Below are positions 33,194-39,637 of a stretch of 64,000 nt of DNA, one piece after another. The position numbers were made by a program, and so were the translations under genes. Source of the stretch: Hydrolagus affinis (Eukaryota); NCBI GenBank assembly GCA_012026655.1, contig JAAILG010000090.1:1-64000 (forward strand). Direction: 5' to 3'. How positions within the stretch are numbered: position 1 is the stretch's first letter; each line of letters starts with the position of its first letter. Under the pieces are notes generated by a model. It had not been told where the DNA came from. It was given only the letters and a program-made list of their open reading frames with translations, and did not search any database.

Positions 33194-33326
33194 GAATGTG
33201 GATCTGTCAAATTTGCAGACCAAAGAAATGGGGAAGGAAGCTACTACACGAAAAAGCTGCACAGATCAAACGCCGTTATGCAAAACCAGTAGGACGCCCC
33301 CAAAACAGACTAAAGCAAAGGACTGT
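33194..33326 (+). CDS. KAT6B: KAT6B coding exon 7 equivalent, end of PHD2 and basic region
   Basis: gacAG acceptor, GTatgt donor, 133 bp, phase 1-2; (G)[43 protein letters not shown](V). Confidence 0.96.
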
Positions 33327-37020: not shown

Positions 37021-37862
37021 TTCTTAAATAGAAGACAAAATAGCTGTGTAGAAATTGTATTCTAAGAAAATCACTCATATAATATTGTTCGTAAGTATAT
37101 TTTTACGATTGACTTGTATCAGAATAACTCCCAGTGCTTTAAACATATTGCAATTTAAATTGGTAAAATGGACATGTCAATTATTTTGCTAATACTTTGT
37201 TTCCAGAAAAACAGCACTTGAATAATGAATGTATTGTAAAATTTCTAATGCGGTTAATTGAGAATATGTTGATTTGTTGCATTAAAATTGAATGAAGTGT
37301 GTCACAGTGATGCAGGATATTGAAGTAAATACACAAATACACTGCCACAAAATTGTTGGATGCTGAATTTATACTTGTGAGGTGTCCATATGGGGAATGC
37401 CAGATTGTGAGCCACAACTTTTGGAGGAGGTTCAAAAGAGGAGAGGAACTTCCCTTGAGGGAGGAAATGTTGGAGGGTGAGTCTATCTGTACTACACTCA
37501 CATACCTCCAATTTGCTATACTTAAGGTGGCATTGGAAGCAGATCTATTGCCCTACTCCTTCCAGCAGAGGAAGGTATGCTATACAGGAGAAGCCTAAAA
37601 GACTGAGGAGAAAATAGGTCAAAAAAATGAAAGGAAGAAAAACAAACCAATAAATATATATGAAAATGTACTGAAGGCAGCACTAATATCGAATAGAGAG
37701 ACCATAATGGAAATCAGAACTGCATTTTGTATTTGTATACCAAATGTAATTGAATAATCTAGTTTTTTCTTTCCCCAATAAAGTACTCATTTTGGAAATC
37801 TTCCAAGTAGTATTATGGGCACCTTTATAATTAGTAATGATTTCCTTTGTATTTTTTCACAG

Positions 37863-38764
37863 ATCTGCAGCCAGTGATGAAGGATCCATGACAGTGGACA
37901 CAGGAAGGGGGTCACCTGGTAGGGGTCAAAAGTCTAAAGTCTGTACCACACCTTCATCTGGTCACGCTGTGTCTTTGAAGGACTTGAGCAGCAGATTGAC
38001 TGATACAGACCCAACCCTGGCTGGTGCCACCACTTCCACCTCCATATTCAAAGTTAACAAGAAAACTAAGGGTCTCATTGATGGCCTAACTAAATTTTTT
38101 ACACCCTCACCCGATGGCCGAAAGCCAAGAGGTGAAATAGTAGACATTTCAAAACACTATTGGCAGAAGAAAAAGAGCCCTCTTAAACAATCTGGCACTG
38201 TTAACTCTAGCACATGGGCAACATGTATCACTCAAAAATTAATCCCACTCTATCAATCTTCGCCCACATTCCCTAGTCAGAGCCCCACTTCACACAAATC
38301 CAGCACTTCTACCTCTGCTAACTCCCCCCAAAGTTCTTCCAGCCAGTCAAGTATACCCTCTCTTAGCAGCCTTCCCAACAGCAGCCAGCTAAAGGGACTC
38401 TTTGATGGACTTTCTCATATTTATACCACTCAGGGAAAGCCTCGCAAAAAGGGACTTCCCAATTATGCACCACCTAAGCGTAAGCAACATGGGCCTGAGT
38501 TGTCTCCTAGAACAAAAGCCTGCCCTCGTTTCCGAGAGAAGCAAGGTGATAGAGGTAGTAGCTTTTTGTCCCCAGCCTTTTCCCGTGGCTGGAAGGCTTC
38601 CAGGAGGCACCCTTTTAAATCGGTTGCTTATTTCAGACGAACTTTCCTTGTAAAGCACAAAATATTAGGCAGATTAAAATATAGAGTGACCCCTCAAATG
38701 GGGACCCCCTCACCAGGGAAGGGGAGCTTGGCGCACGGAAGGATTAAACGTGATCAGGACGATG
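37863..38764 (+). CDS. KAT6B: KAT6B large exon 8 equivalent (Ser-rich/basic insert), longest form
   Basis: ttttttcacAG acceptor, GTaagc donor, 902 bp, phase 2-1; lies in ORF 37837..38811; [57 protein letters not shown] is characteristic of KAT6B. Confidence 0.96.
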
Positions 38765-39515
38765 GTAAGCAAAGGTCAAAGCTCCAACCCAACCTTCGTC
38801 CCGTCCAATAAAATTTTACTCTATTTTGTCACATAGGTCTTAGCTTTTCTTTTGTTCCTTCTTCACTTTTGTAGGAAAGCAAACAATAAAAAACATCTTG
38901 TCCCTTTTTCTCATGCTAACTAAATATCTAACATTGTTTTTTCAATAAACTCGTATCACAAATCAAGCGTCTTGTTTTTAATTTGCATCTGTAGTAGCAC
39001 TAGGAAACCGAATGCCTGCATAACCTTGCTTACAGCTTTGTAGAACCGCATGGCCAAGCAACTTCCCATGTTTTTCCTTCACTCTATTGTCCTTTCCCAA
39101 ACGCTAGTTCAGCAAGTGTGATTTGTGATTTTCAGCATCCAGCTTTGGTAACAAGAAATGGCAGATGTTGACAGCTGTGCTAACTTGTAGGTCTTCCTAT
39201 TCTGCACTTTACTCATTTTTTTGCTACATTCCTATCTTTAAAGTGCTTTAAACCTTGCTGGATTTCCAACATCCAAAATGTTGGTTAAAGCTGTTTAATT
39301 GCTCCTGCTTTCACTGCATGTCTTGTTTATTTCTTATGTGATTATTAGCAGTAAGAACTGTTAGATGTAGAATTTGCCAGACCTTAATAATAAAGCATCA
39401 ATGGAAGTTATATGCTTTATTTAGAGCTGTTAGTAGAGCATGTAATTAAATGCATGTGATGTTGGTTTTCTCATGTGCTTGAACATTTATCCTGTGCTGC
39501 TTTGGTGAACAGTAG

Positions 39516-39637
39516 GCAACGAAGAAATGAAAAACATCAAAAAGGAAAGCACAGAGGAACTCGCAGCAAGCCACACAGACAATGTGACAGATGAGGACTT
39601 GGAGATGTTCAAGCAAGCACGGGACCTGTCACTGAAG
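39516..39637 (+). CDS. KAT6B: KAT6B coding exon 9 equivalent (alternative start 39513 via NAGNAG)
   Basis: CAGTAG tandem acceptor, GTgagg donor, 122 bp, phase 1-0; (G)NEEMKNIKKESTEELAASHTDNVTDEDLEMFKQARDLSLK resembles human VTEEDLDVFKQAQELSWE region. Confidence 0.92.

What the first reader, a model, noticed from the sequence alone, without database searches (positions are those of the whole stretch)
37863..38764. Duplicated KGL(I/F)DGL peptide motif in exon 8 with nested donors that could select 0, 1 or 2 copies
Seen: within low-complexity sequence, exon 8 has two similar blocks, [12 protein letters not shown] (38068-38103) and [12 protein letters not shown] (38392-38427), each followed by G(R)KPR. 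Three phase-1 GT sites (exon ends 37918 CTG|GTAGGG, 38224 CAT|GTATCA, 38764 ATG|GTAAGC) all splice in frame to exon 9 and would keep zero, one or two copies. Established (recalled): human KAT6B has three isoforms from alternative donors at the equivalent positions. Inference: splicing may tune the valency of a short amphipathic interaction motif, conserved across jawed vertebrates; I do not know of a described ligand for it.
Basis: partly seen in the sequence, partly recalled or inferred. Interest (0 to 1): 0.7.

Follow-up and report, generated by a model that had tools for sequence, protein, structure and literature searches.

The report
Ancient splice-switched motif pair in KAT6B
The histone-modifying enzyme KAT6B carries two short related peptide motifs, kept from rotifers and molluscs to mammals, in a predicted floppy segment that annotated short forms of the enzyme lack; they likely dock a partner not yet known, and in this chimaera-type fish splicing likely keeps both or none, because the middle splice site looks decayed.

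Summary
The motifs, coordinates and frames are right. The gene is KAT6B of a chimaera (92% to Callorhinchus). The first and last donors are the two strongest of 39 GT sites in the exon, and Callorhinchus long and short models differ by the expected 282-283 residues. The middle donor has lost its -1 G here (Cys where relatives have Gly) and is probably weak or dead, so 0/1/2 fits sharks, coelacanth and amniotes better than this animal. The two motifs are the best-conserved part of the exon. They are not a vertebrate duplication: a distinct A and B pair occurs in annelid, mollusc, crinoid, chelicerate and rotifer KAT6. In 5 of 5 molluscs compared, short annotated forms drop the motif segment. 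KAT6A is a fixed middle-donor, A-only form. The G(R)KPR tail is not conserved. No ligand was found; junction reads could not be seen. The three isoforms are known (recalled); I found no description of the motif pair in ten literature searches. The scan's earlier notes had nothing on it.

The parts
37863..38764 (+). KAT6B long exon ('exon 8'), 300 codons of predicted disordered linker between the double PHD finger and the MYST domain
   Evidence: pLDDT under 50 over the matching human region 340-686
37916..37924 (+). Proximal donor CTG|GTAGGG (exon end 37918): short form, no motif
   Evidence: strongest U1 pairing of 39 GT sites; Callorhinchus X2/X3, shark, frog, rodent short models join here
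38068..38130 (+). Motif [13 protein letters not shown] (38068-38103) plus [10 protein letters not shown] tail
   Evidence: invariant G70 L71 D73 G74 L75 F79 T80 P81 R86 in 31 aligned proteins
38222..38230 (+). Middle donor CAT|GTATCA (exon end 38224): would keep A only; -1 G lost here, likely weak or unused
   Evidence: same position and phase as the KAT6A exon end
38314..38370 (+). Conserved serine array with S/T every third residue (SxxS), just before motif B
   Evidence: six in-register columns S/T in 35-36 of 36 gnathostome long forms; cluster-only shuffle p 0.019
38386..38481 (+). Motif [15 protein letters not shown] (38386-38427) plus basic tail and PNYAPPKR
   Evidence: invariant K177 L179 F180 D181 G182 L183 S184 H185 R194
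38653..38694 (+). Third conserved, basic segment [14 protein letters not shown], long form only
   Evidence: conservation 0.83 and 0.71 in its two 10-residue blocks
38762..38770 (+). Distal donor ATG|GTAAGC (exon end 38764): long form, A+B
   Evidence: second strongest of 39 GT sites; Callorhinchus X1
38765..38850 (+). Conserved start of the intron, with AATAAA at 38807 overlapping the read-through stop
   Evidence: translations match mammalian read-through proteins P0013, P0413 in two different frames
39510..39637 (+). Exon 9 with tandem CAG/TAG acceptors (exon starts 39513 or 39516)
   Evidence: one-residue variants in Callorhinchus X2/X3

Best explanation
This exon of KAT6B encodes a predicted disordered linker holding two ancient, distinct short motifs (A and B) that likely fold as short amphipathic helices on an accessory chromatin partner, and alternative 5' splice sites likely decide whether the enzyme carries them. 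Shown by sequence: the motifs, their conservation across bilaterians, the donors and the frames. Shown by database models, not by reads of this species: long (A+B), middle (A) and short (none) proteins. Inferred: in this chimaera the choice is mainly short versus long, because the middle donor lacks both -1 G and +5 G; KAT6A arose by fixing the middle-donor form; the partner lies outside the enzyme's own reader domains, since a nematode KAT6 keeps A without PHD or winged-helix domains. My odds for the partner: a Polycomb PRC1-type or other co-purifying chromatin complex about 0.3, the nucleosome surface 0.15, the enzyme's own MYST domain or BRPF1 0.1, casein kinase 1 0.08, PCNA 0.04, something else the rest.
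For: Top 22 of 289 twelve-residue windows of the exon overlap A or B in 35 orthologues (0.91-0.98 against a mean of 0.68). Motif pattern in 30 of 150 distant MYST relatives, two copies in 7, 0 hits in shuffled copies; both copies in Owenia, Batillaria, Anneissia, Tachypleus, Brachionus and Centruroides. Linker pLDDT under 50 with short helices at both motifs. Callorhinchus short models lack 282-283 residues, as the outer donors predict; middle forms in Heterodontus, Latimeria, bat, rat. Short forms also come from sequencing-run assemblies (P0412, P0393-P0396, P0305, P0308). Long/short pairs in 5 of 5 molluscs compared lose 222-369 residues with the motifs. KAT6A exon of this genome ends 49 residues after motif A in phase 1, against 50 for the middle donor. 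Brugia KAT6 has A but no PHD or WH Pfam hit. KAT6A co-precipitates PRC1 (PMC9881136 section 30; PCGF1, BMI1, PCGF6 in the table of PMC12366150).
Against: No binding partner is mapped to either motif in anything I read. All isoform evidence is from gene models or assemblies of other species. The exon 7 donor of this window also scores weakly (-1.9), so a weak U1 score alone does not kill the middle donor; its T could also be an allele or an assembly error. Three of three non-mollusc invertebrate isoform pairs compared (Tachypleus, Anneissia, Owenia) keep both motifs, so the splice switch may not be general and may have arisen twice. Many lineages keep only one motif (insects B; nematode, mite, tunicate, KAT6A A). 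PRC1 co-purification is not mapped to this region and may go through chromatin.
Confidence: 0.6

Rival explanations
1. Valency ladder as first proposed: A and B are interchangeable copies for one ligand, and all three donors work in this species to give 0, 1 or 2 copies.
For: A and B share L-x-D-G-L-x-x-aromatic pair and an Arg downstream; insects keep B alone and KAT6A, nematode and tunicate A alone, as if one can stand in for the other; one metagenome protein has up to four diverged copies (P0186); three forms exist in sharks, coelacanth and amniotes.
Against: A (KFFTP, then RKSR-type tail) and B (QLK..LFDGLSH, then PxY) keep separate invariant residues from annelids to mammals; the middle donor here has lost -1 G and has Asp in place of Gly in 10 teleost rows.
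Confidence: 0.2
2. Kinase-anchoring module working like the PERIOD casein-kinase-1-binding domain: two helices hold CK1 while it phosphorylates the SxxS array between them; splicing removes anchor and sites.
For: Same layout: two conserved helices in disorder with a serine array between (PER layout: 10.1101/2025.02.01.636007 passages; FASP inside CK1BD: abstract start of 10.1101/2022.06.24.497549). SxxS register conserved in 35-36 of 36. The PER helix of this genome reads CLESVIR then YL, a similar hydrophobic/acidic spacing (by eye only).
Against: No casein kinase among the 334 entries of a KAT6A N-terminus IP-MS table (the file was cut, but this sheet lies in the held part). The long array is absent from the linkers of annelid, molluscs, crinoid, horseshoe crab and rotifer (10 of 12 invertebrate rows; present in the two scorpion-type rows). 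No sequence homology to PER was shown.
Confidence: 0.08
3. The motifs act within the enzyme or on the nucleosome: they fold back on the MYST domain or grip the nucleosome surface with their arginine tails, and the donors mainly set linker length between reader and catalytic domain.
For: An Arg after the helix is at least 90% conserved; reviews call this region only the 'basic domain' (PMC10078767 passages); a HAT-inhibitory role of the linker in the short human form is recalled from Champagne et al. 1999 (not read).
Against: The monomer model docks neither motif (pLDDT blocks 30-41), although its MYST domain is incomplete, so the test is weak. Linker length alone would not need invariant hydrophobic residues.
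Confidence: 0.2
4. PCNA-interacting (PIP-like) boxes linking KAT6 to replication.
For: L-x-x-F-F spacing matches PIP positions 4, 7, 8 (consensus recalled); Brugia reads QDSLTRFF, a full consensus.
Against: Gln is rare at that position elsewhere; a PIP box does not explain invariant L-x-D-G; in flies Elg1 binds Br140, not Enok (PMC4888840 passages); PCNA is not in the KAT6A IP-MS table.
Confidence: 0.04

Closest known systems
Human KAT6B (MORF) three splice isoforms of 2073, 1890 and 1781 residues (recalled from UniProt and Champagne et al. 1999; not read here)
   Same: Same exon, same outer donors and a GT at the same middle position; human long form versus bat middle form differs by residues 482-664, rodent short forms by 373-662.
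   Different: The middle donor has lost -1 G in this species; I found no paper that ties the isoforms to motif content.
KAT6A (MOZ) 'basic domain'
   Same: Carries motif A; its exon ends at the position and phase of the KAT6B middle donor.
   Different: No motif B and no GT at the proximal-donor position in this genome's copy.
Alternatively spliced disordered segments that carry short linear motifs (general class; recalled)
   Same: Disordered, in-frame, conserved motif islands, removed by splicing.
   Different: Here the pair is bilaterian-wide and a matching long/short choice appears in mollusc models; the ligand is unknown.
PERIOD CK1-binding domain (SYQ and LT helices around the FASP serines)
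   Same: Two short conserved helices about 100 residues apart with an SxxS array between them.
   Different: No homology shown; array mostly vertebrate; CK1 absent from a KAT6A interactome table.

Membership tests
KAT6B (MORF) orthologue | Best matches are KAT6B; double PHD exons upstream and MYST exons downstream | tested here: met
   the paralogue KAT6A lies on another contig
KAT6B three-donor isoform system | Proximal and distal donors strong, in frame, at orthologous positions | tested here: met
KAT6B three-donor isoform system | Middle donor with AG|GT-type context (Thr-Gly in the long protein) | tested here: not met
   window reads CAT|GT, Thr-Cys; U1 -1.3 against -7.2 kcal/mol with G
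KAT6B three-donor isoform system | Junction reads from each donor in this species | not testable with these tools
   no usable RNA data for this species
Short linear motif in a disordered region | Conservation island above disordered flanks | tested here: met
Short linear motif in a disordered region | Recurs in unrelated proteins | tested here: not met
   degenerate pattern finds only the three KAT6 copies in this genome, 6 hits for the reversed control; no Pfam, PDB or Atlas match; narrow tests
Short linear motif in a disordered region | Binds a defined domain | not testable with these tools
   needs a binding screen
PERIOD-type CK1-binding domain | Two helices flanking a conserved SxxS array | tested here: inconclusive
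   met in gnathostomes, array lacking in 10 of 12 invertebrate rows
PERIOD-type CK1-binding domain | Stable binding to CK1 | not testable with these tools
   needs an assay; CK1 not listed in one KAT6A IP-MS table
PIP box | Q-x-x-hydrophobic-x-x-aromatic-aromatic (recalled consensus) | tested here: not met
   Gln at position 1 in 1 of the 47 motif copies listed (Brugia)
DCAF7-binding helix | Regular expressions 3 and 5 of 10.64898/2026.05.13.724911 | tested here: not met
   compared by eye with the expressions
PP4 FxxP motif | Invariant Phe three residues before Pro (recalled) | tested here: not met
   FFTP in most A copies, but YFTP in Pomacea and no Pro in most B copies

The most novel reading that the evidence does not exclude
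KAT6 enzymes have carried, since before the split of protostomes and deuterostomes, an undescribed two-motif docking module for one specific partner (for example the link to PRC1 seen in flies and humans), together with a splice switch that removes it; vertebrates graded the switch with a middle donor, KAT6A froze the middle state, and this chimaera lineage reverted to all-or-none. Short KAT6B would then be a partner-free enzyme, and most biochemistry done with the short clone would have missed the interaction.
Probability: 0.25. Interest if true: 0.75.

Novelty: new member of a known kind. Interest (0 to 1): 0.48.

Why it matters
KAT6A and KAT6B are developmental-disorder genes and cancer drug targets, and their linker is treated as a featureless 'basic domain'. 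Two 12-residue motifs that are nearly invariant across bilaterians, one shared by both paralogues and one confined to the longest KAT6B form, give exact baits and exact point mutants for finding how KAT6 meets partners outside its core complex, and a reason to treat the KAT6B isoforms as different enzymes. The isoforms themselves are known, so the surprise is moderate.

Tried and rejected
RNA evidence: no RNA holder listed among 17 runs; a 204-base stretch around the middle donor laid 0 reads or contigs in the 4 runs tried: no evidence either way, so donor use and the T at 38224 stay open. Complex folding of a CK1 kinase domain (P0557 1-294) with exon residues 60-206: no answer, score 0.00 twice, alignments not used, disordered partners untested by that tool; not evidence. 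PCNA, nucleosome, PRC1 and MYST pairings were not folded (one job only). Hairpin over the distal donor (GGAGCTT with AAGCTCC): appears in the 101-base fold but z = 0.42 and 0.12; folds around the other donors z = -0.67 and -1.10: not supported. Recent DNA duplication: 74% over 35 bases only, and the pair is ancient. A and B binding each other: not seen in the monomer model, and each occurs alone in some lineages. Pfam, PDB (sequence and profile) and ESM Atlas gave nothing usable. DCAF7, PP4, WDR5 (WIN-like ARGE in KAT6A but PRGE here) and HCF1 (SHIY) patterns fail on conservation; the last two consensus patterns are recalled. A further strong in-frame GT at 38131 would also keep A, but no fetched protein among those classified joins there. 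Literature: ten searches; the peptide-string search gave 3 unrelated papers (one checked, Ubl7). Two clinical papers that may describe the isoforms were not held. The interactome table S4 of PMC9881136 lay beyond the held part of its supplement; bioRxiv supplements are closed; subscription papers, including the original MORF paper, are not searched, so a prior description cannot be excluded. Earlier scan notes: 8 returned, none relevant.

Full report
Identity. The open frame 37831-38811 holds a 300-codon exon whose best match is Callorhinchus milii KAT6B isoform X1 at 92%. That protein maps to ten exons in the window: double-PHD exons before, MYST exons after. The window is therefore KAT6B of a chimaera other than Callorhinchus (inference from identity). 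The paralogue KAT6A lies on another contig (L002).

Observation. Both peptide blocks, the three GT sites and their phase are as written. Exon 9 has a tandem CAG/TAG acceptor; all joins are open and keep none, A, or A+B. The A/B likeness exceeds shuffles (0 of 1000 global, 3 of 1000 local). The G(R)KPR tail is particular to this sequence.

Donors. Of 39 GT sites in the exon 21 are phase 1, so phase alone says little. By U1 pairing energy 37918 and 38764 rank first and second (-8.2, -8.0), while 38224 scores -1.3. Callorhinchus RefSeq X2 and X3 lack 282 and 283 residues, which fits the outer donors and the tandem acceptor; shark, frog, newt and rodent short models join at the same place; Heterodontus, Latimeria, bat and rat models use the middle position; for Callorhinchus the only middle form seen is a truncated UniRef model with a second odd gap. 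Of the 120 hits listed from 402, P0042 and P0057-P0121 have A only and a linker about 180 residues shorter. At the middle donor, long proteins of Callorhinchus, catshark, coelacanth, amniotes, sturgeon and tarpon read Gly; the window reads Cys; ten teleost rows read Asp. Gly implies G|GT, so this lineage or individual has lost the -1 G; with G the site would score -7.2. Donors without +5 G usually need -1 G (recalled). Against over-reading: the exon 7 donor also scores only -1.9 by this crude measure, and no reads of this species were seen.

KAT6A. Its motif-A exon ends 49 residues after the motif's first Leu, in phase 1, against 50 for the KAT6B middle donor, with similar residues (STWPT in shark KAT6A, STWAT here). 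No B copy was found elsewhere in the genome by protein or pattern. The simplest reading (inference) is that the middle donor is older than the KAT6A/KAT6B split and that KAT6A fixed it.

Motif conservation. In 35 hand-picked long forms from jawed vertebrates the top 22 of 289 windows overlap A or B. Among 150 distant relatives (many are not KAT6 and were not sorted) a motif pattern hit 30, twice in 7, and never in shuffled copies. Named carriers of both: Owenia, Batillaria, Anneissia, Tachypleus, Brachionus, Mya, Saccostrea, Haliotis, Pomacea, Pinctada, Centruroides. A only: Brugia, Dinothrombium, Phallusia, Aplysia; B only: Anthonomus and three unnamed insect-like proteins. A is [K]GL[IV]DGL[ST][KR]FFTP followed by a basic tail; B is [11 protein letters not shown][LI][FY] followed by R-x-R and P-x-Y; each class has its own invariant residues in a 31-protein alignment chosen for having both. 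So the duplication happened early in bilaterian history and the copies have stayed different. Brugia keeps A with MYST alone.

Splicing outside vertebrates. Motif-less invertebrate entries are mostly RefSeq isoforms X2-X5. In all 5 molluscs where I had a long and a short entry, the short one lacks 222-369 residues that include the motifs and resumes shortly before the helix preceding MYST, as in vertebrates. In Mya and Saccostrea the long-only part begins with Gly and resumes at Asp, as a phase-1 read-through donor would give (inference; no DNA seen). Two oyster-like short forms come from sequencing-run assemblies. The three other invertebrate pairs kept both motifs. One origin or two is open.

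Structure. An AlphaFold2 model of the human N-terminal 915-residue form with 36 aligned sequences leaves residues 340-686 under pLDDT 50 and draws short helices at 439-442 (A) and 539-551 (B). No Pfam, PDB or Atlas match exists. Asp followed by Gly, Ser, Ala, Pro or Asn looks like a helix cap before a hydrophobic face (inference).

Partner. Nothing read maps a ligand here. Passages of reviews name only a 'basic domain' (PMC10078767) or do not discuss isoforms (PMC9454415, PMC9873972, PMC12678635, PMC8580094). KAT6A co-precipitates PRC1, PAF1 and NSL members, and a PRC1 link is reported for fly Enok (PMC9881136, passages and section 30). A KAT6A N-terminus IP-MS table of 334 entries lists NURF, SIN3A, PCGF1, BMI1 and PCGF6 but no casein kinase or PCNA; I saw about 70 rows plus term searches (PMC12366150). 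A conserved SxxS array precedes B in vertebrates, which recalls the PERIOD CK1-binding domain (10.1101/2025.02.01.636007, passages); the array is missing in most invertebrates. Elg1 binds Br140, not Enok (PMC4888840, passages). Other papers opened gave nothing relevant: PMC9943641, PMC4306483, PMC10297931, PMC11910099, 10.1101/2025.02.03.636246 (passages), 10.64898/2026.05.13.724911 (abstract, most of section 5).

Mechanism, step by step. Shown: two conserved motif classes in the linker; two strong in-frame donors flanking them. Shown in other species' models: three protein forms. Inferred: helical docking on an accessory chromatin partner; all-or-none choice in this species; KAT6A as the frozen middle form. 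Confidence in this whole reading 0.6.

Verdict. Real feature; isoforms already known (recalled); the ancient A/B pair, its removal in mollusc short forms, the KAT6A correspondence and the decayed middle donor were not found in ten searches of open literature. New member of a known kind (spliced motif-bearing disordered segment); interest 0.48.

Noticed in passing
window 38765-38850: The first 85 bases of the intron are conserved with mammals but not in one reading frame: [12 protein letters not shown] and CHIGLS here match read-through proteins P0013 and P0413 from sequencing-run assemblies that are spliced upstream and run past the distal donor. AATAAA at 38807 overlaps the read-through stop. 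Possible splicing element or intronic polyadenylation giving a MYST-less KAT6B.
   Followed up: partly
window 39510-39515: Tandem CAG/TAG acceptor of exon 9; one-residue variants are seen in Callorhinchus, catshark, coelacanth and sturgeon models.
   Followed up: partly
window 37924-37937 and 38774-38787: A similar 14-base block (GGTCAAA core, 79%) follows both strong donors within ten bases; may be chance.
   Followed up: no
window 38653-38694: Conserved alternating basic/hydrophobic segment (GRLKYRV) in the long form only; resembles recalled ET-domain-binding peptides; untested.
   Followed up: no
window 38314-38370: Conserved SxxS serine array, a candidate processive phosphorylation cluster primed at Ser-Pro.
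   Followed up: partly
L002:353-455: The KAT6A exon can read through its donor in frame to a stronger phase-1 donor (CAG|GTAGGG) 34 codons on; a Hemiscyllium KAT6A model (P0390) also reads through, starting GTALTSLTP like the KAT6B long form, without motif B.
   Followed up: partly
window 33241-33243 region (exon 7): The window reads KKWGRK where Callorhinchus has KKRGRK, and motif-flanking HYW where most vertebrates have HYR; Arg-to-Trp changes at conserved basic sites, possibly CpG mutations or assembly errors.
   Followed up: no
P0300, P0310, P0313, P0316, P0317, P0132, P0135, P0206: Molluscs, annelid and rotifer share a third conserved basic helix between A and B (AASRLxKRSK type) where vertebrates have the serine array.
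   Followed up: no
P0159, P0162, P0163: Insect-type proteins lacking A have a conserved WGFAAAA segment upstream of B.
   Followed up: no
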